Position numbers and translations under genes: made by a program. The notes beneath the pieces are model-generated. The model saw nothing but the letters and a program-made list of their open reading frames with translations. It searched no databases and was not told where the DNA came from. A stretch of 64,000 bases of DNA from a virus. Location: positions 1 to 64,000 of the IMG/VR virus record IMGVR_UViG_3300044655_002353. One strand, given 5' to 3'. Shown one piece after another: positions 38,638 to 61,256 of this stretch. The first letter of the stretch is position 1. Every line of letters starts with the position of its first letter.

Positions 38638-38834
38638 CAATTTCTGGTTACGAACCCTTCCTGTTCATGCCTGGTATGACCATTGAAGCAGCTATTCGTT
38701 ATAAGAATAAGTACATTCATGGCGAAATCTTGAAGCAGCTAATGGACAAGTTCAATGAAGTCAATGGCTTACGAGTTCCTAAAGCAGGTGAAAGCTTTTT
38801 GATTCCTGTAATGGAGGAAGGGCCAGGTGTCTAA
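38622..38834 (+). CDS. hypothetical protein (degenerate LysM-like)
   Basis: F.EVNG...PKAGE...IP. Confidence 0.45.
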   Translation: MECQITISGYEPFLFMPGMTIEAAIRYKNKYIHGEILKQLMDKFNEVNGLRVPKAGESFLIPVMEEGPGV

Positions 38835-39465
38835 TACTTTCAAACAATACTTACTAAAAGAAGAACGCGAATCGACTTTCTATACTAAGAAGTCTCAAAT
38901 CAATGCTTGGATGAAAGCTCATGGCATTGGTCAGGGGAATTATGAAATTCATAAAGATATGAGTATCACATGTCATTGGAGTTTATCAATTTCTGGAAGT
39001 GATTTGGTCTGGTACAAAGGGAAGCAGTGTGTATTGCCAATCAACTTTAGAGAATGTACTAAAGATGTTCATGTATTAGCAAATGATATGATTGACTTGA
39101 AAGGGGTACCAAAATTTGTGGGTGGACAGTTCAATGTAAAGGGTAAGAACATTACTTCAGTTGAATACTTACCTGAAGAAGCTGAAGATATCTATCTGCA
39201 TAATACAGGTATTATCAATTTCAAAGGTATTGAAAAAGTGGTCAAAAAAGTCTATTCAATTTCAATACCTGAAGAAACTAAAGGGTTACTAAGCTTTGTT
39301 AAGATACAAAACCTAATGAAGGTTTCGCCATTATCAACTGCTTCTGACGAACTAAAGGAAGCATGCAAAATTGTAACTAAATATTGTGAAGCAAATCGAC
39401 ATGATGCTATTGCTTGTCAACGTAAACTTATTGAAAGCGACTTGGACGAATATGCAGAGTTTTAA
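38827..39465 (+). CDS. CQRELIE-family paralog A1
   Basis: FKQYLLKE leader; conserved tail. Confidence 0.9.
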   Translation: MSNTFKQYLLKEERESTFYTKKSQINAWMKAHGIGQGNYEIHKDMSITCHWSLSISGSDLVWYKGKQCVLPINFRECTKDVHVLANDMIDLKGVPKFVGGQFNVKGKNITSVEYLPEEAEDIYLHNTGIINFKGIEKVVKKVYSISIPEETKGLLSFVKIQNLMKVSPLSTASDELKEACKIVTKYCEANRHDAIACQRKLIESDLDEYAEF

Positions 39466-40123
39466 AGAATACTTACAAGAAGTAGAAACTGATTCAAATA
39501 TTCAACTTGGGATGTTTGTTGAAACTAAAGTCAAAATTGAATATTCTCCATATTCTTTAGAATCTGAGCTTAAAAATTTGATAATAAAAGTAGCAAAAAA
39601 GAAAGGTTATGATATTTCAAGTTATCTCAGTACTACTTATGGAATTGATTTGAAGTTTAAGATAACAAAACAAATCCAGTGTCAAGCAGAAACTATTCAA
39701 AAGTTACGTGATACTATTAGTTCAACTGTGAATGAGTTTTTTACGACTAAGATTTCACCTGAATTACAAGTAAAATTTTCTACAGCTGAGTTATCTTGTT
39801 TTGGATTTCCAAATTTTAAGCTAAGTATAAATGATGGTAACATTTCATATTGGTGTGAAGAAGGTCAATCGATTTCTAACTTAGATAAAGTTATTCTAAA
39901 GTGTGATGAGTTCAGACTTTATAAAGCAAATATGATAAAAGGGGGAATACTTAGTTTGCTCAAACTAAAAATGCCAGTCAATATTATTGGCGCAGGTCCT
40001 TTTGGAAGTAATAGCCCACGATGGTATTCAATTGTCAATCCTTATTTGCAAGGCAATAGAAATGCTATTGCTTGCCAACGAGAACTCATTGAAAAAGACT
40101 TAGACGAATATGCGGAGTTTTAA
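39452..40123 (+). CDS. CQRELIE-family paralog A2
   Basis: MQSFKEYLQE; conserved tail. Confidence 0.9.
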   Translation: MQSFKEYLQEVETDSNIQLGMFVETKVKIEYSPYSLESELKNLIIKVAKKKGYDISSYLSTTYGIDLKFKITKQIQCQAETIQKLRDTISSTVNEFFTTKISPELQVKFSTAELSCFGFPNFKLSINDGNISYWCEEGQSISNLDKVILKCDEFRLYKANMIKGGILSLLKLKMPVNIIGAGPFGSNSPRWYSIVNPYLQGNRNAIACQRELIEKDLDEYAEF

Positions 40124-40796
40124 AGAATACTTAGCAGAAGGCAATGATCATTGGGTAGAACCAATTCGCCCATTGCTTCTTCAAATAAAAGTACGTGGAG
40201 ATGATTACATTTCTCCAAAGTATAATAGAGAACAGCTTTTTCAGCGAAACAATATAATTATTCGTGAATTATCTGAACTCTGTGAAAAAGCAAATCTTCC
40301 TAAAGTAAAAGAAGTCTATCATTTTGGAGTTGATAGAGTAACGTTTCATTTAGTTCTTGAACCCCATACTCATTATACTAAACCGCAACTTGATACTATA
40401 GCAACAAAGTTTATCAAGTTAGCAGATAAGTATGAAATTTATAAGAATGACTTTGAACCAGTATCTTCTGAAATGCCAGTAGTTATCTTAGAAGATAACT
40501 TTGATAAAACGACTACAGTTGAAGTCAATCACGTTATCATTGAAGAAAGTGTCAAATCCTTACAAGATATACATAAAGTCATATTATCTGCTAAACAGAT
40601 TTCTATGGGTGACTCTTCTAATATAACACAAAATGTATTAGGATTACTAAAGATAAAGAATGCTATAACATTATATGCTTCAGCTAAAGTTCAATGGTTT
40701 AACATTGTAAAGGAATATTTCGATACAGGAAAAGACTTTATAGCTTGCCAACGAAAACTAATTGAACTTGACTTGGACGATTATGCAGAGCTTTAA
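40110..40796 (+). CDS. CQRELIE-family paralog A3
   Basis: MRSFKEYLAE; conserved tail. Confidence 0.9.
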   Translation: MRSFKEYLAEGNDHWVEPIRPLLLQIKVRGDDYISPKYNREQLFQRNNIIIRELSELCEKANLPKVKEVYHFGVDRVTFHLVLEPHTHYTKPQLDTIATKFIKLADKYEIYKNDFEPVSSEMPVVILEDNFDKTTTVEVNHVIIEESVKSLQDIHKVILSAKQISMGDSSNITQNVLGLLKIKNAITLYASAKVQWFNIVKEYFDTGKDFIACQRKLIELDLDDYAEL

Positions 40797-41451
40797 GCAA
40801 TACTTATCTGAAGCTTCTAATCCGGATGATAAACAAATCCGTGAAATGATTGGAAAGTATAAGAGTGGAGAACTTGGCAGATGTAGGTTTCCGAATAAAT
40901 TTCCACGACATGCAGTTAAGAATGGAAAAATCTATTTGAAGAAACCTTTAATTATTGAGCATTGCATGTTTGATGACAATGATGAATTACTATTTCCAAT
41001 TGCAGAAGCTCTTCGATTAGTAATATGGAATGTTCCTAAGACGTTCAAGAACTTTCCTGAAATAGTTGGCGAAGGTGGTATTGAATTTTCTACAGGTAAC
41101 CAAATACAATCTCTTGATGGATTTCCATCAGATATTAGTAATAGACTTGATACATCAAGAATTAGAAACTTTGATTTTACAAATTTCAATAAGTATGTCA
41201 AAAGACTTGATGGATGGTTAATAACTAGTGCTTTATATGAAGGGCCCTTATTATCATTACTAAAAATTAGAGACTTGAAGCATGTAGGATTTATTGACCA
41301 CCATTCTGGTAAATCTCAAGATGAAGTAAAAATTAAAGTGAATTTAAGAAATGCTTGTAATATTATCAACAAATATTTACCACTTGGAAATTTTATTGAA
41401 TGCCAACGAGAACTTATTGAAAACGACCTGGACGAATACGCAGAACTATGA
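40783..41451 (+). CDS. CQRELIE-family paralog A4
   Basis: MQSFKQYLSE; conserved tail. Confidence 0.9.
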   Translation: MQSFKQYLSEASNPDDKQIREMIGKYKSGELGRCRFPNKFPRHAVKNGKIYLKKPLIIEHCMFDDNDELLFPIAEALRLVIWNVPKTFKNFPEIVGEGGIEFSTGNQIQSLDGFPSDISNRLDTSRIRNFDFTNFNKYVKRLDGWLITSALYEGPLLSLLKIRDLKHVGFIDHHSGKSQDEVKIKVNLRNACNIINKYLPLGNFIECQRELIENDLDEYAEL

Positions 41452-42125
41452 AAATCTCTGAACTACTAACTGAAGAAACTGCCGAAGATAAAGCTGTACG
41501 ACTCGAAATAAATGCGATTCGTAAAGGTAAGTATGCATCACATCCGATGCCAGTCAGCTTTGGGAAATTTAGCGTTGTTAATAGTATGGTATCAATTGAT
41601 GGACGTTGGAACTTAAAGAATACTCTTATTCCTAAAGATGGACCTGATGCCGGTAAGCTAACTTTCAAAATGATAAAGTGTGGTCAGATTGAATTGGGTG
41701 CCAATAGATTATCATCATTTGAAGGATTTCCACCAGATGTATCATTCACCGGCGATAAGATGTATGGAAGAACTGCTATCGTGACTACCTGTGCGCATCC
41801 ACTTCTAACAAAGTTAGATGGCATTTCAAAACGAATTGATGGAAACCTTGGATTAGGCTTGTGTCATAATCTTGATTGGTCTAATGCTCACAAACATTTT
41901 GAATACATAGATGGCACTTTAACAATTTCTAATCAATGGAAAGGTGGTGTCTTATGGGCATTAAAGATTCCAAAACTTCAAGCTTTGTTTTTTGGCCAAT
42001 GTTCAAGCGAACACCGAGATGTTCAAGTAATTATTAGCAAATACTTAAGGTCAGAGTCAAAAGATATTGTAGCTTGTCAACGTGAACTTATCGAAAAGGA
42101 TTTAGACGAATATGCAGAGTTTTAA
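41448..42125 (+). CDS. CQRELIE-family paralog A5
   Basis: MKISELLTE; conserved tail. Confidence 0.9.
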   Translation: MKISELLTEETAEDKAVRLEINAIRKGKYASHPMPVSFGKFSVVNSMVSIDGRWNLKNTLIPKDGPDAGKLTFKMIKCGQIELGANRLSSFEGFPPDVSFTGDKMYGRTAIVTTCAHPLLTKLDGISKRIDGNLGLGLCHNLDWSNAHKHFEYIDGTLTISNQWKGGVLWALKIPKLQALFFGQCSSEHRDVQVIISKYLRSESKDIVACQRELIEKDLDEYAEF

Positions 42126-42816
42126 AGAATTCTTATTGAAAGAAGAAATTATTAATCATGAACTTCCCACTAACGCGTACATTGATATTAGCACTGGTAT
42201 CTTTACGTCTGAGGTTGAGCAATGGATTACTGACGGTGATGGTGACGATAATCCACATATTACTTTCGAAAAATGGATAACATCTCATCTTCAAGATTAC
42301 TTTGGACATAATGAAGTTGAAGCTTTTTTCGGAGCTGATGAAATGCTTATTACATATGAACTAGATGAGACTAACTTACATGCTAATCATGTTAGAGAAA
42401 TACGTAAAAAATGCACTGAAATAGTTGATGAGCTTTTAGGAACCGATATATTTCACCGTGATGAAGACAATACATACATATCTTTTAGAGAACAACTTGG
42501 TCCAAATGTTTATACTGATTGGCCATATATCGAATTTTACTTAGATCATTCTCCTTCAATATCTCTAAAAGATATTCATAAGAAAATGCCTCATTGCAAA
42601 AAAATTATTTTCTATAATGCGATTAATAAAATAAATTCTAATGTATTAGGATTATTAAAGTTAAAAGAATTGAAGCATATTACAATTTGGCCACGTTCTC
42701 AAAAGATACCTCCTTGGTATGAAATTGTAATGAAACATTTCGACGCCGATAAAAACTTCATCGCGTGTCAACGTGAACTAATTGAAAAAGATTTAGACGA
42801 GTATGCGGAGTTATAA
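42112..42816 (+). CDS. CQRELIE-family paralog A6
   Basis: MQSFKEFLLKE; conserved tail. Confidence 0.9.
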   Translation: MQSFKEFLLKEEIINHELPTNAYIDISTGIFTSEVEQWITDGDGDDNPHITFEKWITSHLQDYFGHNEVEAFFGADEMLITYELDETNLHANHVREIRKKCTEIVDELLGTDIFHRDEDNTYISFREQLGPNVYTDWPYIEFYLDHSPSISLKDIHKKMPHCKKIIFYNAINKINSNVLGLLKLKELKHITIWPRSQKIPPWYEIVMKHFDADKNFIACQRELIEKDLDEYAEL

Positions 42817-43465
42817 CATGTCAAATGGCGCACAAAGAATTACCTATTATGTTTATTGTAAGGTTCCCGGTAACCTACCAAATTCTTCATTACCCTCGAC
42901 TTCAGAAACAATAGAAAATGCAATCGGCAATCTGTTACATAATCAATTTGAGAATAGAATAGTTTCTATAGAATACCGAGATAAAGAATTTGCTTTTAAA
43001 GTACCAATCACAAATGCAACTGAAGGTAGTACAGAAGGTATTAGTGCTTTTGACAAAAAACTGCTTGGTCTGCTAAATAACTATTACAAAGATATTATTA
43101 CTAAACCCTTGAAGTTAAAAGAACAGTTTGTAAGTATCTTTAATATCATACCCCCATTTAAAATTGAGCATCCTAAGGTGGCTCTTAACTTTACAGTAAA
43201 TGGTGGTGCTGAAGTATCTTTACATGATATTCATAAAGCTATAAATCCTAAAGATTTGGCTTTATACGTAAGTGCCGCGGTTAAAGTCACTGGGCAAGTA
43301 TTAGGATTGTTGAAAATGACAAATCTTCAAAATCTTGAATGGGCAATGAGTAATGAACCAGAATGGTTTAAGATTGTTCATAGACATTTTGAAAATAATA
43401 ACGATATTATTGAATGCCAACGCGAACTTATTATAAAGGATTTAGACGAGTATGCAGAGCTTTAA
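42803..43465 (+). CDS. CQRELIE-family paralog A7, leader degenerate
   Basis: MRSYNMS start; conserved tail. Confidence 0.85.
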   Translation: MRSYNMSNGAQRITYYVYCKVPGNLPNSSLPSTSETIENAIGNLLHNQFENRIVSIEYRDKEFAFKVPITNATEGSTEGISAFDKKLLGLLNNYYKDIITKPLKLKEQFVSIFNIIPPFKIEHPKVALNFTVNGGAEVSLHDIHKAINPKDLALYVSAAVKVTGQVLGLLKMTNLQNLEWAMSNEPEWFKIVHRHFENNNDIIECQRELIIKDLDEYAEL

Positions 43466-44120
43466 ACAATACTTACTAAAAGAAAATGAATCTCCATTTG
43501 TTTTCCCATGGCTTGTCTTAGAACTAGAGAACAAAGAAACTTTTGGCGAAGCTATGGGAAATCATAGAAATCGCGATGCTTTTGATAATGAAGTTGAAAA
43601 GTTTGTCAACGATCTTAAAAGTCATTTAGGTATGAAAGATATTGATTGGGGTTTCAATAGAGATGACAATCTACAAGTTGAAATTAAACTAAGCAATCGA
43701 CATTATGTACAAGATGAGTTAGAAGAAATAGCGACTGAAGCAGCGAATTTTTCTAATCGTGAGCTAAGCGGTGGATTGACACTAGATGAAGTCAATCCAA
43801 GTGTATGGTTCTTTGGTCCGGTCAATCCTAATACTATCATACATTATCCAGTCATAGTATTTGATTTGAAACGTAATAAAAGTATCTCACTTAGCAACTT
43901 TGACAAACATTTCCCTGATACTCAAGTGTTCAGGTTTGAACATATAGTAGGAGAAGTCACTAACGTGTTGAGTATGTTGAAGATAAAATCATTACATTCA
44001 GTATTAGGAAAAAATGAACACTGGATTGAAATACTAAATAAATATGCAAAATCCCATGACACTATTGCTGCCCAACGCGAACTAATTGAAAACGACCTGG
44101 ACGAATATGCAGAATTTTAA
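43452..44120 (+). CDS. CQRELIE-family paralog A8
   Basis: MQSFKQYLLKE; conserved tail. Confidence 0.9.
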   Translation: MQSFKQYLLKENESPFVFPWLVLELENKETFGEAMGNHRNRDAFDNEVEKFVNDLKSHLGMKDIDWGFNRDDNLQVEIKLSNRHYVQDELEEIATEAANFSNRELSGGLTLDEVNPSVWFFGPVNPNTIIHYPVIVFDLKRNKSISLSNFDKHFPDTQVFRFEHIVGEVTNVLSMLKIKSLHSVLGKNEHWIEILNKYAKSHDTIAAQRELIENDLDEYAEF

Positions 44121-44901
44121 GAACTTTATTGCTGAAGCTAAGCAAACGAACTTGGCACCTTGGCACCCAACAACTCCAGAAGCAACTAAGGAAGTACTTC
44201 ATGAGTTTTATCTTGAACATTATGGAAATAAATATTTGCCAACTACATTCGTATTCCTAAAGAATGGAAGTATTTCTGTTCGAGGAGAGCAATTCTTCGC
44301 TATTCGTGAAATCGGACCTGTTGATAATGGTGAAGTTGGACTACTTGTAAAGTATAACAATATCAATTGCCCAGGTAGAGTTAGTATAAAAGATTTCAAT
44401 ACTAGGAAATTGACTACATTAGAATATGGACCTAATAAAGTCGGAATGAGTTTAAACATACAACTTTCACAAATTACTTCATTCAAAGGATTTGCATGTG
44501 AAGTTAAAGAGGCATTGATATTGACCGATTGTCTAAAGTTGAAAGAATGGGGTCAAGGATGTCAAATTACATGTCATAGATTAGTGCTTGACTACGAATT
44601 TGACTATGAATTGTTTAGAACTATCGGACAACATTTCAAAATAGTAAATAACATAACATTGTCTAATGCCGCAGCAAAAACTTTAGTTGGAAAAGGATTA
44701 CTTAGTATATTCAAAATTAAAAAGCCTACACGAAATATGTTTGGTATTCAACTTTACTTTTCTGATAAAACTAAAGTAAACGAAGAATTAGTTGAAGCAA
44801 CTAGAATAGTCAATACATACTTAGCGTCAAACAACCCTGATATTATTGGATGCCAACGTAAACTAATAGAAAACGACTTGGACGAATATGCAGAGTTTTA
44901 A
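44107..44901 (+). CDS. CQRELIE-family paralog A9
   Basis: MQNFKNFIAE; conserved tail. Confidence 0.9.
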   Translation: MQNFKNFIAEAKQTNLAPWHPTTPEATKEVLHEFYLEHYGNKYLPTTFVFLKNGSISVRGEQFFAIREIGPVDNGEVGLLVKYNNINCPGRVSIKDFNTRKLTTLEYGPNKVGMSLNIQLSQITSFKGFACEVKEALILTDCLKLKEWGQGCQITCHRLVLDYEFDYELFRTIGQHFKIVNNITLSNAAAKTLVGKGLLSIFKIKKPTRNMFGIQLYFSDKTKVNEELVEATRIVNTYLASNNPDIIGCQRKLIENDLDEYAEF

Positions 44902-45532
44902 AGAATACTTATTAGAAAGTGCTGGACACTTACCAATTGTCAATGTACAAATTGACTTTGCTGGTCCTATTTCTGTCGGCAAACGTAAAACTCTAGTATT
45001 CCTAATTACAAAATTTATCAAGGAAGAATACAACCTTTCTAATACAATAGAGTTCACTTCTATTTTTGATTCAATAATTGTCAAAATACACGATGTTCCG
45101 CAACATCTTTTTGAAACTGTTGATTTCTTAGGTGATATACATGACATAGTTACTGACCACTTTGAACCTGTTGACGCTTACAGTCATATTGAATGTCATT
45201 GGCCACCTGCTTTCAAGATGGTCATTCAAAATCATTTGACTACTATCTATACTAACCAAGAGTCTGTTAAAGGTATCGAAAAACTAATAGAAGGTTCAAG
45301 TGCATTTCAATTGGACATTCGTTTTGAAGCACCGGCTAAATCAATTGGAATACTATCGCTTCTAAAAGTAAAAGGTTTTGATAGCATCATGATAAATGGT
45401 CCAGATGAATTACTTAGCGACCTTAAAATTGTTAATGACATTTTACATAAATACTATAATGGGAGTAAAGATACTATTGGCTTTCAACGAGAACTAATTG
45501 AACGTGACTTAGACGAATATGCAGAATTTTAA
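44888..45532 (+). CDS. CQRELIE-family paralog A10
   Basis: MQSFKEYLLE; conserved tail. Confidence 0.9.
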   Translation: MQSFKEYLLESAGHLPIVNVQIDFAGPISVGKRKTLVFLITKFIKEEYNLSNTIEFTSIFDSIIVKIHDVPQHLFETVDFLGDIHDIVTDHFEPVDAYSHIECHWPPAFKMVIQNHLTTIYTNQESVKGIEKLIEGSSAFQLDIRFEAPAKSIGILSLLKVKGFDSIMINGPDELLSDLKIVNDILHKYYNGSKDTIGFQRELIERDLDEYAEF

Positions 45533-47651: not shown

Positions 47652-47857
47652 GAGTTTAACAAGTTAGTCAAAAAGTCTATCTTAACAGCAAGTTCGAGTT
47701 TCTCTGCTTCCATTTTTCCTATTGCATTATTGATATTGTCGAGACCGTTTACTCTGGCGTAAAAGTTATAGTTTTCTTTAAAAAACCCTAATGATTTTGC
47801 GACGAATTCATAATCTTGACTTAGTTTTTCTAAATATTCTGCTGAAAAGTTATTCAT
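47648..47857 (-). CDS. hypothetical protein
   Basis: GAGGG RBS on minus strand. Confidence 0.5.
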   Translation of the reverse strand: MNNFSAEYLEKLSQDYEFVAKSLGFFKENYNFYARVNGLDNINNAIGKMEAEKLELAVKIDFLTNLLNS

Positions 47858-47863
47858 GTGTTT

Positions 47864-48893: not shown

Positions 48894-48908
48894 GTTTCAT
48901 ACTCATAG

Positions 48909-50303: not shown

Positions 50304-50307
50304 GATT

Positions 50308-54737: not shown

Positions 54738-55378
54738 TGAAAATAAAAGAATTGTTTGAACAGGAAGAAGAACAAATACCATATAAAGTAGCAGAGCAAT
54801 TGAGAATGCTTACTCAAGGTACTATCAATCTAAATAAAATGGGCATATTATATGCTAATTCTAAATTAGACTTATCGCAATCTGATACGGCATTTGGAGC
54901 TTTCGCTGATAAAGTTGAAAATGGATATGAACTAAAATATAAACTTGACGTAGTATTAGGTGATTTTGATATTGAAGATAGACAAATAGTTTCATTCAAA
55001 AACTTTCCAAACTCGGTTCATGGTGCTGTAAATTGTTATAAAAATAATATTACTTCACTTGAAGGTGCTCCTTATAATATAAGTGGTTCTTTAGATTTGA
55101 TTGATAATCCTATCACTTCATTCAAAGATATTCATAAACATATTCAGAGTTGCAGTAAGATTTATGTTCCTGTATCAGTTCAATCAAACTTATTAGGTGT
55201 ATTGAAGATGAAAAATATTCCTTTACTTTCTACTGCTTCAACTGATAGATGGAAAGAAGGTTATAATACTTTATTAAAAGCTATATCTATCATAAATAGT
55301 TATCAAACAGCCAATGATTGGATTGCATGTCAACGAAAACTAATTGAAAACGACCTGGACGAGTACGCAGAATTATGA
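54737..55378 (+). CDS. CQRELIE-family paralog B6
   Basis: MKIKELFE; ITSLEGAP; conserved tail. Confidence 0.9.
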   Translation: MKIKELFEQEEEQIPYKVAEQLRMLTQGTINLNKMGILYANSKLDLSQSDTAFGAFADKVENGYELKYKLDVVLGDFDIEDRQIVSFKNFPNSVHGAVNCYKNNITSLEGAPYNISGSLDLIDNPITSFKDIHKHIQSCSKIYVPVSVQSNLLGVLKMKNIPLLSTASTDRWKEGYNTLLKAISIINSYQTANDWIACQRKLIENDLDEYAEL

Positions 55379-56031
55379 AAATATCAGAATTATTAAATGA
55401 AGCAACAAGTAATAGAACCGATACTTTTGAAATAAAGTTATCGTTTGAAACACATTTTGCACCAAAAGTAATTGCTATTCGAGATGCTTTGATTAAAGCT
55501 AATCTTACTGGCGTAAAAGTTAAACTTGTCGATAAACCATCATCAAGTAACCAAGTACGAATAACTTTGAACGGAAAACTTCCATTCAACAAAACTAATA
55601 TTGAACATCAATTAGAAAGAGTTCGCGAAGTAGTCGAAAGCTTTAACAAAATCGATAAAAGCCCTTATAACGAAGGTTCATCATTTCCTATTGTCTTTAT
55701 TGACAATATGCCAAATAGCCCAATTGAATGGCCGGTTATCTATTTGAACTCAAATAGTAATACAGCTCTTTCATTAGCAGGTGTTGATAAACTTATTAAA
55801 GCAGATGAATTATTTAGAATTGAATATGCTAATATGATTAGCGATAGTGTTGTAGGGTTATTGAAAATCAAAGGCAAACTCATTCTAAATAATGCAGATT
55901 GGGGTAATAAGTTTAAAACTGTTGAATGGGTTAAAATTATTACTAGTTATAGAAAATCAGAAAATCAAGATATAGTTGCATGTCAACGTGAAATGATTGA
56001 ACAAGACTTAGACGAATACGCGGAATTTTAA
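55375..56031 (+). CDS. CQRELIE-family paralog B7
   Basis: MKISELLNE; conserved tail. Confidence 0.9.
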   Translation: MKISELLNEATSNRTDTFEIKLSFETHFAPKVIAIRDALIKANLTGVKVKLVDKPSSSNQVRITLNGKLPFNKTNIEHQLERVREVVESFNKIDKSPYNEGSSFPIVFIDNMPNSPIEWPVIYLNSNSNTALSLAGVDKLIKADELFRIEYANMISDSVVGLLKIKGKLILNNADWGNKFKTVEWVKIITSYRKSENQDIVACQREMIEQDLDEYAEF

Positions 56032-56666
56032 TGAAAATAAAAGAACTATTTGAAACCTCAGTTAGAAAAGATTATTTTATAGACTTATGGCTGTCGTATA
56101 ATGCTCTAACTACTACTTTAACAAAACTCAATGAAAATCCTAAAAAGATAACTGATGCTATTGACAAAAAAACCGGATTGAGTTCAATTATTCAAGTTGG
56201 TAAAGGTACATTTGATATTAGCCTTGAAGTTCCAGAACATCAGGTGAATGATTTTGCGAATTACATAGATGATGTCAATGCTGTTCTTAAAGCGTTTTTT
56301 GATATCACTGAAATTCGTGAAGATTCAGGGTCGCATATAGTTCATTTAACATTTGACAAACAGGTTCCTTCATTACCAATACCAATTGAGTTTCCGAATA
56401 TCTTTATTCAGAACCTTAATAAAACTTCATTATCTGGTATTCATAAAATAATAAAAGATTTTAGTTATTTAGAAATCAATAATTCTGAGAATATTACAGG
56501 TGGTGTTTTGGGTTTGATAAAGTTAGCAAAACATGGAGTAATAAAAATCAATACTCCAAATCCTGAATGGGCTAACATTGTTTTAAAATATTTAAACTCG
56601 GGTGATGTCATTGCATGTCAACGAAAACTAATTGAAAAGGATTTAGACGAGTACGCAGAACTATGA
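56031..56666 (+). CDS. CQRELIE-family paralog B8
   Basis: MKIKELFE; conserved tail. Confidence 0.9.
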   Translation: MKIKELFETSVRKDYFIDLWLSYNALTTTLTKLNENPKKITDAIDKKTGLSSIIQVGKGTFDISLEVPEHQVNDFANYIDDVNAVLKAFFDITEIREDSGSHIVHLTFDKQVPSLPIPIEFPNIFIQNLNKTSLSGIHKIIKDFSYLEINNSENITGGVLGLIKLAKHGVIKINTPNPEWANIVLKYLNSGDVIACQRKLIEKDLDEYAEL

Positions 56667-57589
56667 AAATATCAGAATTGTTAAATGAAGCATCTAAAGG
56701 TGCAGACTATTCAGCGGTCATTGACCAATTAGAACAAACTCCAGAGTTTAAGGACTTCTCGAAGTACTTTGACTTGAACTCCACGAAAATACAAAGAAAG
56801 AATGGTTCTTTGCAAATAGTGACTAAAGATACCTATCTAAAAGAACCACGAGAATACTTTGTCAATTATGCAGGTGATATCAAAGTCAAAAATTCTTACG
56901 CCTCTATTTGGGGTAAAGCGGGTTATGGTGCGGGTCCAGACGGTTCATTACAAATGTATCTGAACTGTTTAGATACAATACATACCCATTTTGTGAATTG
57001 GTTTGCAAAACGTCTAAAGAATGCTAAAGATGATGTGCGTAATCTTAGTCTTACTACGCTAAAAGGCAGAATTTATCCAAATAAGATTTCAAACTTCAAT
57101 TGTTCTTACAATAATCTTACAACCTTAGAAGGAGCACCTGAACTTAATGCGGCGGGGGATTTCTCAGTAGGTGGGGATTTCTATTGTAACAACAATGAAC
57201 TGACTTCGCCTTTAGTTGGTGGTCCTGAACAATGTAGATTGTTTAATGCTGCTAATAATAAGCTAACATCTTTTGAAGGATTTCCAAAGCATGCTCAGTT
57301 TATTCAAGCGTATGGTAATCCAATCACTTCATTCTCTGACGTTCATAAGCATATTCCGAGGTGTCAAGGATTTACTTTACCGCCAGTCAAAACTGGGGTC
57401 TTAGCATTTTTCAAAGTAAAAGATTGTACTTCAATTGCATTTACTATAAATGGTAGAAAAACAGAAGATGGAGAATTTGGTTTAGTTGCTCAAATTGTTT
57501 CTAAGCATTTATTCTCTAGTGAACGAAGTGCTATCAAATGTCAACGTGAACTAATTGAAAACGACTTGGATGATTATGCAGAGTTTTAG
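56663..57589 (+). CDS. CQRELIE-family paralog B9, extended LRR-like repeats
   Basis: MKISELLNE; NNLTTLEGAP repeats; conserved tail. Confidence 0.9.
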   Translation: MKISELLNEASKGADYSAVIDQLEQTPEFKDFSKYFDLNSTKIQRKNGSLQIVTKDTYLKEPREYFVNYAGDIKVKNSYASIWGKAGYGAGPDGSLQMYLNCLDTIHTHFVNWFAKRLKNAKDDVRNLSLTTLKGRIYPNKISNFNCSYNNLTTLEGAPELNAAGDFSVGGDFYCNNNELTSPLVGGPEQCRLFNAANNKLTSFEGFPKHAQFIQAYGNPITSFSDVHKHIPRCQGFTLPPVKTGVLAFFKVKDCTSIAFTINGRKTEDGEFGLVAQIVSKHLFSSERSAIKCQRELIENDLDDYAEF

Positions 57590-58301
57590 ACAATACTTAT
57601 TAAAAGAACAGGCTAACAACGATTTCGACTTTTGGCCGGAAGAAGATATTATCGACTGGATTACTAGAAATGGTCATCGAGTTCTAAAGAAGTATAACAT
57701 TGAAGATTTAGACCCTGGCAACTTTGAAAATGCAAAGTATGATTATGGTATTGTAAATGCTACGGCTGTGTTATTATCTGGTGATGAAGAATGTTTGCCA
57801 CGTATTAATGGTTCAACTCATCTTCGTTATTTGCCATGTCAGTTTGGACAAATAGAAAGGAACTTCTTTATAGCAAATTGTAGTTTAGGTTCTTTGAAAG
57901 GATGTCCTAAAATCGTGGGTGGTCGTTTTAGCATTAGCAACAATCCAGAAATCACATCACTTGATTATTTTCCTGAAAGAGCTTCTTCATATATACTTCG
58001 TGGAACTGGTATTACTTCTTTGAGTGGCATTCACAAAGTCATCAAAGAAATAAGACCTAATAGACAAGGTGATGGTGAAATTGTCGTTCCGCATACTTTG
58101 ACTAATTCTATATTAGGCTTGCTAAAGATACCAGGATTGAGAACTATTTCATATCCAGCAACTGAAAGAGCTAAATACTCTAATGAACTTCGCCAAGCAA
58201 TTGGAATAGTCTATAACCATTTACAAACAGACGAAAAAAATGCTATTGCCTGCCAACGAGAACTAATTGAAAATAATCTAGACGATTACGCGGAGTTTTA
58301 A
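57576..58301 (+). CDS. CQRELIE-family paralog B10
   Basis: MQSFRQYLLKE; SLKGCP; conserved tail. Confidence 0.9.
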   Translation: MQSFRQYLLKEQANNDFDFWPEEDIIDWITRNGHRVLKKYNIEDLDPGNFENAKYDYGIVNATAVLLSGDEECLPRINGSTHLRYLPCQFGQIERNFFIANCSLGSLKGCPKIVGGRFSISNNPEITSLDYFPERASSYILRGTGITSLSGIHKVIKEIRPNRQGDGEIVVPHTLTNSILGLLKIPGLRTISYPATERAKYSNELRQAIGIVYNHLQTDEKNAIACQRELIENNLDDYAEF

Positions 58302-59239
58302 TGAAACTAAATGAACTATTTCCATTACTAAAAGAAGCCGGTGTTTCGATACCTGCTGTTAAAGATTTGCCGCCTATTGACCCGGTTGATTTAGCTGATA
58401 CTCTAAATAAAGTCAAACAATCAAACGAATATAAAGAAATACTTTCAAAAACATTTGATATCAGTTCTGCTATAAAACTAAAAAACGGAACTTTAACATT
58501 CAAGTTGAAAAATGGAACTATGGATTATTCGATTTATTCTAATGGACAGATAAGAGCTCAGGCAGCACATGCTGATAGAGCCACTAAGATGAATTCGCCT
58601 ATTCCCGTTCCTAATCTATATGTTCGTTATATCAACTGTTTAAAAAAGCTGAAAGACATAGCTGAAAAAAAATTAGCTAAGAAAGAAGAAAATAAAACAA
58701 TTATATTATCTGGAGAAATGGGCCCTGACTTAACTCAAATTGAATTCCCAAAAGATACAATTTATCTCAATGTTCTTAAATCTTCAATTCGTTCCCTAAA
58801 AGGTTGTCCGCCAACAATTGAACATTTGATGATAAGTGACAATGAAAATCTAATATCTTTAGAAGGTTGTCCATCTAAATTAACAAATTTAGCTATATGG
58901 GATAATAAAAACTTATCATCATTAGAACATATTGCTTCTGATATTGATGGTAATCTACAAATTTATCGTAATGCAAAAATTACTTCTTTTGACAATTTAG
59001 ATAAGTTAGTAAAAAGAATAGGCATCATGTTACAATTTGACCCAACTATTAAAAGTGGTGTTCTTTCTATTTTGAAAATTAAAGGATTAGAACAAGGTGT
59101 TCGACAAACAAAACCACCACAAGAAGTTGATCTTATCTTAGGTAAAATTCTAACTAAACATATATTTGCAGGGCGCAACAGGATTGCGTGCCAACGTGAT
59201 CTAATTGAAAACGACCTAGACGAGTACGCGGAGTTTTAA
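58301..59239 (+). CDS. CQRELIE-family paralog B11, extended LRR-like repeats
   Basis: MKLNELF; SLEGCP repeats; conserved tail. Confidence 0.9.
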   Translation: MKLNELFPLLKEAGVSIPAVKDLPPIDPVDLADTLNKVKQSNEYKEILSKTFDISSAIKLKNGTLTFKLKNGTMDYSIYSNGQIRAQAAHADRATKMNSPIPVPNLYVRYINCLKKLKDIAEKKLAKKEENKTIILSGEMGPDLTQIEFPKDTIYLNVLKSSIRSLKGCPPTIEHLMISDNENLISLEGCPSKLTNLAIWDNKNLSSLEHIASDIDGNLQIYRNAKITSFDNLDKLVKRIGIMLQFDPTIKSGVLSILKIKGLEQGVRQTKPPQEVDLILGKILTKHIFAGRNRIACQRDLIENDLDEYAEF

Positions 59240-59907
59240 TGAAAGTAAAAGAACTATTTGAACACGAAGCTATTCCAAAGTTAAAACAAAATCATATGAT
59301 AGAGCTTACATTAGAATTTAGCGGATTGACTGACTTATGTAAGAAGATGAAAGCAAATTTGCAACAGTTCAAAAAACTTATCAATGAAAAGACTGGAACT
59401 GATAGTATTATATTAGTTAGTACTATTTCATTTTCTATTAAATTATTGATTGAAGATAAAAATGTTGATGCTTTTGATAATTATCGTGAAAATGTTTTAG
59501 ACGTATTGAATGAATTTGCAGGTGATTCTTCTAACTATCGAGAAAATCATGAAGACCACCATGTTAATCTATTCTTTTCACATGAGGTTCCTAAACTTTC
59601 AATTCCAATTTCATATGATACTGTTTATGTAAATGTAGAAAATAAATCTTCATTATCCGGAATTGATAAAATTATATCTTCTTTTAGAAACTTATATATT
59701 CGTAATTGTGAAAACGTTACCGGAAAGGCATTAGGCATTATTAGGTTAGCTAAGAAAGGTAAAGCAATCAACTTATCAACATCAGATTATCATGAATTGC
59801 ATTGGATGTATGTTATCAATAAGCATTTGAATCCTGAACGTCAAAATGTTGTAGCTTGTCAACGAGAACTAATTGAACGTGATTTAGACGAATATGCAGA
59901 ATTTTAA
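59239..59907 (+). CDS. CQRELIE-family paralog B12
   Basis: MKVKELFE; conserved tail. Confidence 0.9.
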   Translation: MKVKELFEHEAIPKLKQNHMIELTLEFSGLTDLCKKMKANLQQFKKLINEKTGTDSIILVSTISFSIKLLIEDKNVDAFDNYRENVLDVLNEFAGDSSNYRENHEDHHVNLFFSHEVPKLSIPISYDTVYVNVENKSSLSGIDKIISSFRNLYIRNCENVTGKALGIIRLAKKGKAINLSTSDYHELHWMYVINKHLNPERQNVVACQRELIERDLDEYAEF

Positions 59908-60568
59908 ACAATACTTGCAAGAAGGTGAAACTCAGAATTCAGTTTATCTTGAATGTTGTTATTACTTTCCAGGAAATCCTATAACAGACATAACTTCAGC
60001 AAAAGTTCGTGGTATAGTCTCACCAGTGTTGAAAGGCTTTAAGTTTTCACTTCAAGATGTAAGCACTGAAGGTTTTGTTGTAGTTATTATAGACCCTGAT
60101 AGTAATTGGTTGAAATCTGAAAAAGCTCAGTTTGATTTGCATGGTAAGATTATGGAAGCAGTTTGCTCTGAGTATAAAATGAACTTTGCGCATGTCATTA
60201 ATCATCATAAGTTTTCGGCTAATTGTAATATAGGATTGAATAGATTACTTCCATTTCAAGTAGTTTGTCATTTATTGTCTATCAATGTTCAAGTTGATAC
60301 AGTTTTTACAAATATCAAAAAGCTAGTAAAATGTGATGCGATTCACATTTATCAAATGGAGTATTTTAATGGAGGGTTATTAGGATTATTACAAATACCT
60401 CATCCAACTCAAGTTTGGTTTTCTTCTAATAGTATTAGATTAGCAAAATACGATAAATTAAATGAGGCCATTCGAATTGTCAGAACACATTTAGATGGTG
60501 ATAGAAATGTTGTAGCTTGTCAACGAGAACTAATTGAAAAGGATTTAGATGAATATGCAGAGCTTTAA
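59894..60568 (+). CDS. CQRELIE-family paralog B13
   Basis: MQNFKQYLQE; conserved tail. Confidence 0.9.
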   Translation: MQNFKQYLQEGETQNSVYLECCYYFPGNPITDITSAKVRGIVSPVLKGFKFSLQDVSTEGFVVVIIDPDSNWLKSEKAQFDLHGKIMEAVCSEYKMNFAHVINHHKFSANCNIGLNRLLPFQVVCHLLSINVQVDTVFTNIKKLVKCDAIHIYQMEYFNGGLLGLLQIPHPTQVWFSSNSIRLAKYDKLNEAIRIVRTHLDGDRNVVACQRELIEKDLDEYAEL

Positions 60569-61256
60569 ACAATACTTACAAGAAGACACGGCTTCAAATA
60601 GCGAATACGTTCAACGTATTCGAGACCTATTAAATGATTGGGCAAGTCAAGAACTTATACCGAATGACCCAAAGAAAAACTCTTTGCACGGTTTCAAAAT
60701 ATCTGCATCTGGGATAGTTGATTGTCAGTTAGGAACTCTTATAATTTATGATGAAATGTTAGATGCTAATGGTGAATTCCCATTCAAAATCCGAAATGCA
60801 AAATATATGATTTTGGAGCGTTTAGAAAAATTAAAATCATTCAAAAACTTTCCTGAAAAATTAGTATGTAAATCAGATTATAGGGATGTTTTTATAACAT
60901 ATCATCTTTTTAAGTATCGTAAAATTACATCTTTTGAGAATTTTCCAAAATATTGTCCTAATGGAGAAATACAACTAGAGGCATTTGTAAATGCTTCTTT
61001 TTCAAATATTCATAAACATATTTTGGATGCAGAAACAATAAGAATAAATCCTAATTATGTTGGACCTATTTTATCATTTTTAAAGATTCCAACTTTAACA
61101 GATGTATATGCATTTACGGGGGATGTAAATGACGAAAGTGAATCATGTAAAGAAGCTCTTAGTATTCTAAATAAACATTTAAATGGTAATAGAGACTTTA
61201 TTGCATGTCAACGAGAACTAATTGAAAAGGATTTAGATGAATATGCTGAATTATAA
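60555..61256 (+). CDS. CQRELIE-family paralog B14
   Basis: MQSFKQYLQE; conserved tail. Confidence 0.9.
   Translation: MQSFKQYLQEDTASNSEYVQRIRDLLNDWASQELIPNDPKKNSLHGFKISASGIVDCQLGTLIIYDEMLDANGEFPFKIRNAKYMILERLEKLKSFKNFPEKLVCKSDYRDVFITYHLFKYRKITSFENFPKYCPNGEIQLEAFVNASFSNIHKHILDAETIRINPNYVGPILSFLKIPTLTDVYAFTGDVNDESESCKEALSILNKHLNGNRDFIACQRELIEKDLDEYAEL

What the first reader, a model, noticed from the sequence alone, without database searches (positions are those of the whole stretch)
38827..61256. 29-member hypervariable paralog arsenal with capsid-targeting-like leader and invariant C-terminal tail
Seen: two tandem arrays (13 genes at 38827-47651, 14 at 51322-61256) plus solo copies at 27604 and 35141, together about 20 kb. 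Each ~210-310 aa protein has a short leader (M-Q/R-S/N-F-K-x-Y/F-L-x-E or M-K-I-x-E-L-L/F-x-E), a divergent ~100-150 aa core, degenerate LRR-like units (LTSLEGCP, SFKNFP), a G-x-L-x-x-L-K-I motif and the tail I-A-C-Q-R-E/K-L-I-E-K/N-D-L-D-E-Y-A-E-F/L. Known: T4 internal proteins carry the capsid-targeting sequence MKTYQEFIAE, are cut by prohead protease after L/I-x-E and are ejected into the host, and IPI* inhibits the GmrSD nuclease; A9 begins MQNFKNFIAE. Inference: this is a late-expressed, head-packaged library of injected proteins. The variable core plus LRR would be the target-binding part (for example anti-defence) and the constant tail a shared docking or ejection handle. I do not know of a described system with this layout and scale.
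Basis: partly seen in the sequence, partly recalled or inferred. Interest (0 to 1): 0.92.

Follow-up and report, generated by a model that had tools for sequence, protein, structure and literature searches.

The report
Phage paralog arsenal with head-loading tags
A giant lake-water phage related to T4 carries 29 fast-diverging copies of an unnamed protein family, each starting with a short tag like the one T4 uses to load proteins into its head, and a cultured relative carries one such protein in its particles, so they are probably cargo delivered into the host with the DNA.

Summary
The 90-kb record has 29 paralogs: 13 at 38827-47651, 14 at 51322-61256, and solo copies at 27604 and 35141. All 29 share a C-terminal module; 28 keep an N-terminal leader or a variant of it.

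The leader comes in two interchangeable forms. Both resemble T4 head-loading propeptides fetched here: IpII/IpIII MKTYQEFIAE, IpI MKTFKEF, Alt MELITELFDE. 27 of 29 have [LI]-x-E within 13 residues, against 8 of 77 other ORFs.

Ralstonia phage RsoM2USA is the only one of 50,697 phage records that the three tblastn queries found. It has 4-5 members. Its ORF89 was reported among the 10 major bands of purified virions. So was ORF132, an unrelated protein with the same leader.

The cores have at least two folds: an LRR solenoid and a ferredoxin-like domain. They evolve faster than the flanking virion genes, with gene gain and loss. The family is large and unannotated, with 1,537 cluster representatives at E<=1e-10.

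Cleavage, a position inside the head, ejection and anti-defence function are inferred, not shown. The idea of tagged, variable head cargo is known from T4. This scan has noted similar leader-tagged paralog arrays on other DNA.

The parts
27604..28446 (+). solo family member, 280 aa, type B leader MKLQDLLTE, variant tail ...DLDESGWAE
   Evidence: weak LRR_4 hit of 15.9 bits, below the 27-bit cut-off
35141..35839 (+). solo family member, 232 aa, variant leader MSSLSMDKFRELFLGQFE, tail ...DFDEYATF
   Evidence: ortholog in relative SXGU01063245.1 at 39% core identity
38827..39465 (+). array 1 member 1, 212 aa, GTG start, leader (V)SNTFKQYLLKE
39452..40123 (+). array 1 member 2, 223 aa, type A leader, non-LRR core
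40110..40796 (+). array 1 member 3, 228 aa, type A leader MRSFKEYLAE, non-LRR core
   Evidence: ortholog at 91% core identity
40783..41451 (+). array 1 member 4, 222 aa, type A leader, LRR units; no counterpart in the relative
41448..42125 (+). array 1 member 5, 225 aa, type B leader MKISELLTE, LRR unit
42112..42816 (+). array 1 member 6, 234 aa, type A leader, non-LRR core, pI 4.9
42803..43465 (+). array 1 member 7, 220 aa, leader lost (MRSYNMSNG...), tail kept
43452..44120 (+). array 1 member 8, 222 aa, type A leader, non-LRR core
   Evidence: ortholog at 84%
44107..44901 (+). array 1 member 9, 264 aa, leader MQNFKNFIAE; its ortholog in the relative carries a type B leader instead
44888..45532 (+). 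array 1 member 10, 214 aa, type A leader, non-LRR core
45519..46256 (+). array 1 member 11, 245 aa, type A leader
   Evidence: ortholog at 87%
46256..46915 (+). array 1 member 12, 219 aa, type B leader MKIKELFE (TAATG junction), non-LRR core
46902..47651 (+). array 1 member 13, 249 aa, type A leader; tail kept although no gene overlaps it
51322..51999 (+). array 2 member 1, 225 aa, type B leader; modelled as disordered leader, helical cap, LRR solenoid and two C-terminal helices
   Evidence: AF2 pLDDT 90.6, residues 1-11 below 50; only LRR folds found, best Z 8.0
51999..52670 (+). array 2 member 2, 223 aa, type B leader; its ortholog in the relative has a type A leader
52667..53383 (+). array 2 member 3, 238 aa, type B leader, LRR
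53380..54072 (+). array 2 member 4, 230 aa, type B leader, LRR
54072..54737 (+). array 2 member 5, 221 aa, type B leader, LRR; closest paralog pair with 51322 (46% core identity); absent from the relative
54737..55378 (+). array 2 member 6, 213 aa, type B leader, LRR
55375..56031 (+). array 2 member 7, 218 aa, type B leader; modelled as ferredoxin-like N-domain plus the shared C-terminal module
   Evidence: AF2 pLDDT 74.4, C-terminal half 82-96; N-domain matches are generic alpha/beta folds, Z up to 7.7
56031..56666 (+). array 2 member 8, 211 aa, type B leader, non-LRR core; absent from the relative
56663..57589 (+). array 2 member 9, 308 aa, type B leader, longer LRR
   Evidence: phrog_21719 at 7.7e-6
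57576..58301 (+). array 2 member 10, 241 aa, type A leader MQSFRQYLLKE, LRR
58301..59239 (+). array 2 member 11, 312 aa, leader MKLNELFPLLKE, LRR
   Evidence: ortholog at 84%
59239..59907 (+). array 2 member 12, 222 aa, type B leader, non-LRR core
59894..60568 (+). array 2 member 13, 224 aa, type A leader, non-LRR core; absent from the relative
60555..61256 (+). array 2 member 14, 233 aa, type A leader, LRR; absent from the relative; followed by TATAAATA (61260) and the large terminase gene
37453..38637 (+). 394-aa gene just upstream of array 1 with a leader-like start (MKIFELFSSTNKVIIEE) but no family tail; possibly another tagged protein
   Evidence: 81% identical in the relative; no Pfam, PHROG or phage-record match

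Best explanation
The 29 genes encode a family of virion cargo proteins of a T4-related giant phage.

Each protein has four parts:
(a) a flexible 5-12-residue N-terminal propeptide of the T4 capsid-targeting type;
(b) a variable N-terminal domain, either extra LRR turns under a helical cap or a ferredoxin-like alpha/beta domain;
(c) a conserved module of about 100 aa made of a few LRR-like strands;
(d) a two-helix C-terminal cap ending in the near-invariant I-A-C-Q-R-E-L-I-E-x-D-L-D-E-Y-A-E-F/L.

Proposed mechanism:
1. The genes are made from long operons by translational coupling, through overlaps of 1, 4 or 14 nt.
2. The leader takes each protein into the scaffold core of the prohead.
3. A T4-type (S77) prohead protease removes the leader after [LI]-x-E.
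4. The mature proteins stay in the DNA-filled head and enter the cell with the DNA.
5. There the variable surfaces bind different host targets, most plausibly defence or other host proteins.
6. The constant C-terminal module supplies a common fold or cap and perhaps a common contact.

Shown: the family, its anatomy, the likeness of the leader to T4 propeptides, the predicted folds, fast evolution with cassette gain, loss and leader swapping, and a published virion detection of a homolog in a cultured relative.

Inferred: a position inside the head, cleavage, ejection, and what is bound.
For: 1. Leader likeness. T4 IpII/IpIII start MKTYQEFIAE, IpI MKTFKEF..., Alt MELITELFDE. Window type A is M-Q-S-F-K-E-Y-L-A-E and type B is M-K-I-K-E-L-F-E. 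Type A has an aromatic residue at positions 4 and 7, L/I at 8 and usually E at 10. A review passage names these positions for targeting (4, 7) and processing (8, 10). Alt is cut at ITE-6 (passage), and type B has I-x-E at residues 3-5.
2. Enrichment. 27 of 29 members have [LI]-x-E within 13 residues, against 8 of 77 other ORFs. 117 of 134 metagenomic representatives also have it.
3. The leader is predicted disordered: pLDDT below 50 for residues 1-11 and 4-14.
4. RsoM2USA has the closest large terminase (44%). The family profile finds four places at E from 3e-20 to 2e-8, including gp88, gp89 and gp90, plus a fifth weak match (E 0.026) inside the gp88 frame.
5. The RsoM2USA paper lists ORF89 (28.57 kDa) among the 10 bands of purified virions assigned by SDS-PAGE and LC-MS/MS (passages). 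My computed mass of gp89 is 28.56 kDa.
6. The strict type A leader occurs at only 4 places in that 344-kb genome: gp89, gp81, gp385 (next to the capsid gene) and gp132. gp132 is an unrelated 674-aa protein that is also on the virion list (76.64 kDa reported, 76.62 computed). Two of 4 falling among 10 of 486 ORFs has hypergeometric P = 0.0022.
7. RsoM2USA encodes Peptidase_S77 (4.8e-24) and Gp23 (2e-97). The Gp23 match starts at residue 52, which leaves room for a propeptide.
8. Selection acts on the peptides, not just the DNA. Tail residues are invariant while codons vary (Arg CGT 8, CGA 15, CGC 4; one Leu uses 4 codons). The same leader stands on non-overlapping genes in RsoM2USA and T4.
9. 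Arms-race-like evolution. Against relative SXGU01063245.1, flanking proteins are 79-99.5% identical (tail tube 99.5, gp13 95, large terminase 87). Family cores are 36-91% identical. 5 members are window-only and 3 relative-only, and 2 orthologs have swapped leader type. Pooled core dN/dS is 0.22, against 0.01-0.09 for structural genes.
10. The genes lie among neck, tail and packaging genes, on the same strand as the tail tube and terminase genes.
11. Contigs identical to the arrays occur in two metatranscriptome libraries, with uneven depth where the DNA is flat. This is only a weak hint of transcription.
Against: - No data exist on this phage's own virions.
- The RsoM2USA paper says the bands 'most likely correspond' to the ORFs. 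It gives no N-terminal peptides in the text I saw, and supplements were closed.
- Virion presence does not tell inside from outside.
- The members are acidic to neutral (pI 4.9-8.8). A review passage speaks of related basic CTS-bearing proteins in T-even phages.
- Neither the prohead protease nor the capsid gene was found in the window's own record. That record is only about 25% of the genome, and the search had no positive control.
- TATAAATA is not enriched (8 found, 7 expected). A sigma-70-like site lies before the gene that leads into array 1. Timing is therefore open.
- Part of the type A leader (MQSFK) is forced by the overlap with the tail codons.
- XacN1 and PA5oct gave no match with the family profile.
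- dN/dS is below 1 everywhere, so there is no direct sign of positive selection.
- No member matches any known anti-defence or defence model.
Confidence: 0.55

Rival explanations
1. External virion decoration or adhesin set. The constant C-terminal module docks on a repeated site on the capsid, collar or baseplate. The variable N-terminal or LRR part points outward and binds different cell-surface or environmental ligands. Particles would then carry a mixed coat that widens adsorption.
For: LRR solenoids are typical binding modules; the fold search returned only LRR proteins, among them internalins. A constant module joined to variable binding domains is how Goslar's DUF7941 'fibre cloud' proteins are described, some with LRR domains (passages). 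The genes sit among neck and tail genes. Virion detection of ORF89 fits this equally well. The acidic pI suits an exterior position better than a place among DNA.
Against: This reading leaves the conserved, disordered N-terminal leader with [LI]-x-E unexplained. It also does not explain why the same leader sits on an unrelated virion protein, gp132. The two models are of compact single chains of 218-225 aa.
Confidence: 0.15
2. Cytoplasmic host-takeover or adaptor family that is not packaged. The variable part binds a host protein and the constant C-terminal helix docks on one common hub. This resembles viral and bacterial repeat-protein adaptor families (recalled analogy: poxvirus ankyrin/F-box-like proteins). 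The virion band in RsoM2USA would then be carry-over.
For: A constant C-terminal helix on a variable binder fits an adaptor. There is a sigma-70-like site at 37400-37427 ahead of the operon that holds array 1. The late motif is not enriched. The pI is acidic. Some F-box/LRR proteins appear among the fold rows (Z 8.0 and 7.3), which shows only a shared LRR fold.
Against: ORF89 was one of only 10 major bands of purified virions. The leader co-occurs with virion presence (P = 0.0022). Array 2 is translationally coupled into an operon with the tail tube paralog and runs into the terminase gene.
Confidence: 0.15
3. Generic head-filling or core proteins with no target specificity. They are packaged through the leader but serve assembly, internal pressure or DNA organisation. 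The divergence would then be drift in a weakly constrained region.
For: Head paralog families of unknown role are described in SPN3US (passages). dN/dS is below 1 with no sign of positive selection.
Against: Acidic to neutral proteins are poor DNA counter-ions. At least two different folded N-terminal domains are kept. Orthologs are retained in order in a relative, with purifying selection (dN/dS 0.12-0.47), which argues that each copy matters. LRR surfaces are binding modules.
Confidence: 0.15

Closest known systems
T4 internal proteins IPI, IPII, IPIII with their capsid-targeting sequence (CTS)
   Same: They have a short N-terminal propeptide of near-identical pattern. Per review passages, T-even internal proteins are a diverse set that shares only the CTS, which loads them into the scaffold core and is cut off by the prohead protease; IPI* blocks a host nuclease. 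The phages are T4-related: gp15, sheath and T4-type terminase here; S77 protease and Gp23 in RsoM2USA.
   Different: There is no sequence homology of the mature parts (no Pfam or PHROG hit). Here there are 29 copies in two operon-like arrays, about 25-35 kDa each, acidic or neutral. They have LRR or alpha/beta cores and a constant C-terminal module of about 100 aa that T4 IPs lack. Cleavage and ejection are untested.
T4 Alt (packaged, injected ADP-ribosyltransferase)
   Same: The Alt N-terminus MELITELFDE resembles the type B leader MKIKELFE. Alt loses 6 residues at ITE-6 and also a C-terminal piece at LTE-619 (passage). That is a precedent for signals at both ends; the window's tail contains L-I-E nine residues from the end.
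   Different: Alt is a single 682-aa enzyme. No enzyme domain was found here. C-terminal cutting of this family is pure speculation, and L-I-E is not kept across the wider family.
Ralstonia phage RsoM2USA ORF88, ORF89, ORF90 (and the gene at 47332-48024): the only homologs found in cultured phages
   Same: True family members: profile E from 3e-20 to 2e-8, same leader (MKTFKQFLSE, MSFKTFLES), same tail pattern (...CQEELIDMGYEKLAEM). ORF89 was reported in purified virions.
   Different: There are only 4-5 copies, placed far from the terminase and head genes. They are annotated as hypothetical proteins, and the paper does not describe a family in the passages I saw.
Head paralog families and ejection proteins of phiKZ-like giant phages (SPN3US, phiKZ, 201phi2-1)
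   Same: Several paralogous proteins inside a giant phage head are processed by a T4-related prohead protease and thought to be ejected (passages).
   Different: Those phages mostly use long propeptides (over 100 residues) and S/A/G-x-E cut sites. Here the leaders are 5-12 residues with L/I-x-E. The sequences are unrelated.
Goslar (Chimalliviridae) DUF7941 'fibre cloud' proteins
   Same: A paralog family with one constant docking module and variable binding domains, some LRR, on the virion (passages).
   Different: The constant module there is N-terminal and forms head-to-tail filaments outside the particle. It has no CTS-like leader, and the phage lineage is different.
LRR effector and adaptor proteins of bacteria (IpaH/SspH LRR domains, internalins)
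   Same: The same kind of short LRR solenoid: VIA Z 6.2-7.1 to SspH1, IpaH and InlA/InlB, rmsd 4-5 A over 134-168 residues.
   Different: The match is to the fold only, at Z values the tool calls common. There is no NEL or other effector domain. Function cannot be transferred.

Membership tests
T4-type CTS-bearing head cargo (functional class: IPI-III, Alt) | Short N-terminal propeptide with the CTS pattern: aromatic or hydrophobic residues at the targeting positions, then [LI]-x-E | tested here: met
   26 of 29 match the two leader patterns. 27 of 29 have [LI]-x-E within 13 aa, against 8 of 77 controls. T4 leaders were fetched for comparison, and the key positions come from a review passage.
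T4-type CTS-bearing head cargo (functional class: IPI-III, Alt) | The phage encodes a T4-type prohead protease (Peptidase_S77) and gp23-type capsid | tested here: inconclusive
   Not found in the window's own record. That record is about 25% of the genome and the search had no positive control. Both are present in the closest cultured relative, RsoM2USA: S77 at 4.8e-24, Gp23 at 2e-97.
T4-type CTS-bearing head cargo (functional class: IPI-III, Alt) | The protein is present in purified virions | not testable with these tools
   No virion data exist for this uncultured phage. Homolog RsoM2USA ORF89 is reported among 10 virion bands (passages; mass check).
T4-type CTS-bearing head cargo (functional class: IPI-III, Alt) | The propeptide is removed by the prohead protease, and the mature protein is ejected into the host | not testable with these tools
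   This needs N-terminal or semi-tryptic mass spectrometry and infection assays. The supplements of the RsoM2USA paper were closed.
T4 IPI/IPII/IPIII/Alt as homologous protein families | Sequence similarity of the mature part | tested here: not met
   No Pfam or PHROG family for 8 members, apart from weak LRR_4 and phrog_21719 hits. The family is therefore not a homolog of the T4 IPs. It only shares the tag.
Leucine-rich repeat superfamily | Tandem beta-strand/turn repeats forming a solenoid with a conserved Leu pattern | tested here: met
   The AF2 model (pLDDT 90.6) has successive short strands. All 50 rows shown by the wide VIA search are LRR or LRR-containing proteins, best Z 8.0, rmsd 4.1 A over 140 residues. 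Foldseek's top rows are LRR proteins but none reaches E<=0.001. 17 of 29 members carry an x-L-x-G-x-P unit. The Pfam LRR_4 hit is below threshold (15.9 against 27 bits).
phiKZ/SPN3US-type processed head paralogs | Long propeptides and S/A/G-x-E (or A-x-E) cleavage motif | tested here: not met
   The leaders are 5-12 residues with L/I-x-E. The motif description comes from passages.
Goslar-type DUF7941 virion fibre proteins | N-terminal DUF7941 docking module | tested here: inconclusive
   The Pfam scan of 8 members gave no such hit. I do not know whether this Pfam copy holds DUF7941.

The most novel reading that the evidence does not exclude
Each particle of this phage lineage carries a mixed, pre-made cocktail of some two dozen different binder proteins, LRR or alpha/beta heads on one constant C-terminal module. 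They are loaded by a T4-type tag and injected with the DNA. The constant C-terminal helix is a second address. It could be a second propeptide or contact for the scaffold or capsid interior, as Alt is processed at both ends. Or it could be a handle that couples every bound host target to one common host or phage machine. On that reading the arrays are a cassette library of injected, target-specific adaptors. The family of more than 1,500 clusters in environmental giant phages would then be a major, unrecognised class of injected counter-defence proteins.
Probability: 0.17. Interest if true: 0.9.

Novelty: new variant of a known kind. Interest (0 to 1): 0.68.

Why it matters
If these are injected cargo, T4's IPI strategy is used on a far larger scale than known. 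T4 injects one inhibitor against one nuclease; here about 29 diverging binders sit on a common scaffold.

The family is big and unannotated: 4,168 cluster representatives at E<=0.001 and 1,537 at E<=1e-10.

It has members in a cultured phage, RsoM2USA, one of which is already reported in virions. Packaging, cleavage, ejection and host targets are therefore directly testable.

The two interchangeable leaders and the constant C-terminal module could also serve as tools for loading foreign proteins into giant phage heads, as the T4 CTS already does (passage).

Tried and rejected
- Family names. Pfam, PHROGs and PADLOC gave none: only sub-threshold LRR_4, phrog_21719 for the two long members, and chance hits. 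A profile search of PDB sequences gave only weak LRR hits (dynein light chain 1, E 0.02).
- Foldseek against PDB gave no match at E<=0.001.
- Foldseek against BFVD gave four matches at E from 1e-8 to 1e-5 to unnamed viral proteins (accessions A0A8D4G...). I could not identify them.
- The ESM Atlas returned only unnamed viral clusters.
- The N-terminal domain of the second model matched only generic ferredoxin-like folds, and that part of the model has low confidence (pLDDT 53-74).
- tblastn of three members or homologs against 50,697 phage records found only RsoM2USA, plus LRR-only similarities in Vibrio and uncultured phages. XacN1 and PA5oct gave nothing with the profile. The 394-aa neighbour has no match in phage records.
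- Genome-contig scan: no relative.
- Own record: no S77 or Gp23 match, with no control. The 157-aa gene before array 2 could not be named as the small terminase.
- Promoters: the TATAAATA count equals chance. Sigma-70-like and terminator scans were at shuffle level. My reading of the intergenic DNA gave no clear late-promoter consensus, so expression timing stays open.
- Laid contigs. All joints (skips and back-steps) lie at the repeated gene junctions and come from short-word contigs. I take them as assembly ambiguity, not as evidence of cassette deletion or rearrangement. Contig depth cannot rank genes, and RNA libraries may hold DNA.
- Array 2 is present almost letter for letter (0.99 of words) in 18 lake or freshwater DNA runs from 2020-2025. 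These may be one campaign and may include the source sample. There is thus no sign of rapid within-population switching.
- I considered and rejected the idea that leader and tail are conserved only as a DNA recombination handle. Codons vary while residues do not, and the leader stands on non-overlapping genes elsewhere.
- I considered the tail's L-I-E as a second protease site. It is not conserved in the wider family, and the tail is modelled as folded.
- Complex prediction was not used. I claim no specific binding pair, and the phage's own scaffold and capsid proteins are not in the record.
- Literature. Four searches found no description of this family: 'capsid targeting sequence', 'internal protein', 'jumbo'; RsoM2USA; internal proteins, CTS, T4-like, hyperplastic; jumbo phage, leucine-rich repeat, paralog. 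These cover only the held library.
- Papers were seen as passages only: PMC8504454, PMC3012670, PMC9026906, PMC5694885, bioRxiv 10.64898/2026.04.21.720040. Mullaney and Black 1996 is known to me only as cited there.
- Supplements were closed and not requested. The RsoM2USA supplements might hold peptide lists that bear on N-terminal cleavage.

Full report
WHAT IS THERE

The window is the first 64 kb of a 90,028-base IMG/VR virus record that CheckV rates about 25% complete, which points to a genome of roughly 350 kb. Marker genes place it among T4-related myoviruses:
- a gp15-type tail sheath stabiliser (28453-29205, minus strand), the tail sheath (25081-27045, minus) and a T4-type large terminase (61302-62861);
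- a head-tail adaptor (35836-37350, minus), the tail tube (48300-48893) and a 422-aa tube paralog (49035-50303);
- a B-family DNA polymerase, primase and helicase further downstream.

The closest large terminase among 50,697 phage records is that of Ralstonia phage RsoM2USA (44%), followed by XacN1 and PA5oct-like giant phages.

THE OBSERVATION

It is confirmed. One member finds 29 intact copies in the record:
- 13 abutting or overlapping genes at 38827-47651;
- 14 at 51322-61256;
- solo copies at 27604-28446 and 35141-35839.

Lengths are 211-312 aa. Median pairwise identity is 18.8% for the cores (maximum 46.4%) and 83% for the last 18 residues. In the 29-way alignment the Q, R, I, D and A of the tail are invariant.

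26 of 29 start with one of two leaders:
- type A, M-Q/R-S/N-F-K/R-x-Y/F-L/I, 12 genes;
- type B, M-K-I/L/V-x-E/D-L/F-L/F, 14 genes.

27 of 29 have [LI]-x-E within the first 13 residues, against 8 of 77 other ORFs of at least 100 aa in the record. The gene at 42803 has lost the leader, 35141 has a variant, and 38827 has a GTG start and one extra residue.

JUNCTIONS

Type A genes start 14 nt inside the previous gene. MQSFK is read from ...T ATG CAG AGT TTT AA, which in the other frame is Y-A-E-F-stop. Type B genes start at TAATG or ATGA. So part of the type A leader is forced by the tail, or the tail by the leader.

Three facts show that both ends are selected as peptides and not only as a DNA repeat:
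- Tail residues are invariant while codons vary. Arg uses CGT 8, CGA 15 and CGC 4; one Leu uses four codons; Cys, Asp, Tyr, Ala and Glu each use two or three.
- The last gene of each array keeps the tail although nothing overlaps it.
- The same leader stands on non-overlapping genes in RsoM2USA (MKTFKQFLSE) and T4 (IpI MKTFKEF).

STRUCTURE

Member 51322, modelled with 19 homologs (pLDDT 90.6, pTM 0.85), has these parts in order:
- a disordered leader (residues 1-11, pLDDT below 50);
- an N-terminal helix;
- a run of short strands;
- two C-terminal helices that include the 'tail' at pLDDT 94-98.

The tail is therefore part of a folded cap, not a free peptide. Foldseek against PDB found nothing at E<=0.001, though its top rows are LRR proteins. 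The wide VIA search listed only LRR proteins. The best was Z 8.0, rmsd 4.1 A over 140 residues, which the tool calls a middling score.

Member 55375 (pLDDT 74.4) has a beta-alpha-beta-beta-alpha N-domain of low confidence. It matches only generic ferredoxin-like folds (Z up to 7.7). The same well-predicted C-terminal module follows it.

By a simple motif count, 17 of 29 carry x-L-x-G-x-P LRR units and 12 do not. The family is thus a constant C-terminal module of about 100 aa under at least two kinds of variable head.

WHAT THE LEADER LOOKS LIKE

I fetched the T4 genes rather than rely on memory. IpII and IpIII begin MKTYQEFIAE, IpI begins MKTFKEF..., and Alt begins MELITELFDE.
- Type A (MQSFKEYLAE) matches IpIII position by position in character. 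It has an aromatic residue at 4 and 7, L/I at 8 and E at 10.
- A review passage states that residues 4 and 7 matter for capsid targeting, and 8 and 10 for processing.
- Type B (MKIKELFE) resembles Alt. Alt loses six residues at ITE-6 (passage), and type B has I-x-E at residues 3-5 and usually L-x-E at 6-8 or 7-9.
- Review passages describe T-even internal proteins as a diverse set of defence-countering proteins that share only the capsid-targeting sequence.

EXPERIMENTAL LINK THROUGH A CULTURED RELATIVE

The family profile finds four places in RsoM2USA at E from 3e-20 to 2e-8: gp88, gp89, gp90 and a gene at 47332-48024. A fifth, weak match lies in the same open frame as gp88. XacN1 and PA5oct gave none. 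The RsoM2USA proteins have the leader (MKTFKQFLSE, MSFKTFLES) and the tail pattern (...CQEELIDMGYEKLAEM).

The RsoM2USA paper cut the most abundant SDS-PAGE bands of purified virions and assigned ten by LC-MS/MS. Among them are ORF89 (28.57 kDa), ORF132 (76.64 kDa) and ORF86 (96.44 kDa) (passages). My computed masses for locus tags 89, 132 and 86 are 28.56, 76.62 and 96.43 kDa, so the numbering agrees.

A degenerate pattern for the type A leader hits only four places in that 344-kb genome:
- gp89;
- gp81;
- gp385, which lies beside the capsid gene;
- gp132, a 674-aa protein with no likeness to the family.

Two of these four ORFs fall among the ten virion proteins out of 486 ORFs, which has hypergeometric P = 0.0022. 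RsoM2USA also encodes a Peptidase_S77 prohead protease (4.8e-24) and a Gp23 capsid protein whose Pfam match starts at residue 52.

This is the best evidence that the leader marks virion proteins in this lineage. It does not show cleavage, and it does not tell inside from outside.

EVOLUTION

A metagenome contig, SXGU01063245.1 (63.7 kb), carries the same layout with 25 members: one solo copy, 13 and 11.
- Flanking proteins are 79-99.5% identical: tail tube 99.5, tube paralog 94-96, adaptor 95, large terminase 87.
- Family cores are 36-91% identical.
- Five window members have no counterpart (40783, 54072, 56031, 59894, 60555), and three of the relative's have none.
- Two orthologous cores carry the other leader type. 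Database homologs show the same swap.
- Pooled dN/dS is 0.22 for cores (range 0.12-0.47), against 0.01-0.09 for the structural genes and 0.15 for the 394-aa neighbour.

The copies are functional, evolve several times faster than virion genes, and are gained, lost and re-tagged as cassettes. Overall dN/dS stays below 1.

Other viral contigs hold 3-5 copies per fragment.

The family is large. There are 4,168 cluster representatives at E<=0.001, 1,537 at E<=1e-10 and 37 at E<=1e-30 among 1.84 billion. Some of the weak hits are probably general LRR proteins.
- 129 end in the tail pattern;
- 117 have [LI]-x-E within 13 residues;
- 68 start like type B and 24 like type A.

EXPRESSION AND POPULATION

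Array 2 occurs almost letter for letter in 18 lake or freshwater DNA runs from 2020 to 2025. These may be one campaign and may include the source sample. It also occurs in two metatranscriptome libraries.

Laid contigs from the RNA libraries are identical to the arrays. Word depth there is uneven (tail tube bin 33.5 and 13.2, arrays about 4-15, terminase 1.4-3.8), while the DNA is flat at about 17 over the tube gene and 17-25 over the arrays and terminase. This is a weak hint of real transcription. Promoter motifs do not settle the timing.

VERDICT

The most likely reading (0.55) is a family of virion cargo proteins. They would be loaded by a T4-type propeptide and delivered to the host, with the variable heads as target binders and the constant C-terminal module as a common cap or contact.

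Three rivals stand at about 0.15 each:
- an external adhesin or decoration set on a constant docking module, like Goslar's DUF7941 proteins;
- unpackaged cytoplasmic adaptors;
- non-specific head-filling proteins.

The acidic to neutral pI (4.9-8.8) and the absence of the phage's own head genes from the record are the main weaknesses.

The principle is known from T4, and this scan has noted leader-tagged paralog arrays in other T4-related phages. The family itself, its LRR-plus-constant-module build, its size (29 copies here, more than 1,500 clusters worldwide) and its link to virion proteins of a cultured phage appear to be undescribed in the library I could search.

Noticed in passing
window 50308-50883: A TnsA-like endonuclease gene (Pfam Tn7_TnsA-like_N, 1.6e-18) sits between the tail tube paralog and the 157-aa gene that leads into array 2. 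It is 94% identical in the relative, so it is a stable resident and not a recent insertion.
   Followed up: partly
window 50849-51322: A 157-aa gene is translationally coupled to the first gene of array 2. It stands where a small terminase would be, upstream of the large terminase gene with 10 kb of array between them. It has no Pfam or PHROG match, so the small-terminase identity is unconfirmed.
   Followed up: partly
window 49035-50303: A 422-aa paralog of the tail tube protein (phrog_4542, 1.7e-10 over residues 75-277) lies directly after the tube gene and a strong terminator-like hairpin at 48905-48949.
   Followed up: no
window 31200-31500: A stack of strong sigma-70-like promoters (TTTACA, 17 nt, TATAAT) precedes the plus-strand genes at 31515-34805, which lie between minus-strand neck genes.
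   Followed up: no
window 61260-61267: A T4-type late promoter octamer, TATAAATA, lies 35 nt before the large terminase start, right after the last array gene. The motif is not enriched in the window overall.
   Followed up: partly
L011 16644-19166 (RsoM2USA gp86): The 96-kDa protein reported in RsoM2USA virions lies next to the family genes and has two AAA+ ATPase domains (PF00004, 2.9e-14). Its neighbour gp85 has a 53% identical homolog at the end of the window's own record (G000 88715-89668). No gp86 homolog is in the record.
   Followed up: partly
L009 6452-7954 (G000 86452-87954): A 500-aa protein matches the PHROG family named 'ribosomal protein S6 glutaminyl transferase' (RimK-like ATP-grasp, 2.1e-24).
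   Followed up: no
protein P0062 (database hit, 1755 aa): A giant protein matches the LRR part of the family profile in nine stretches (E 1e-49) but lacks both the leader and the tail. It may be a source of, or a relative of, the repeat units.
   Followed up: no
RsoM2USA MG752970 329469-329495 (minus strand): This is the only strict type B leader pattern in RsoM2USA (MKFRELFAE). I did not look at the gene.
   Followed up: no
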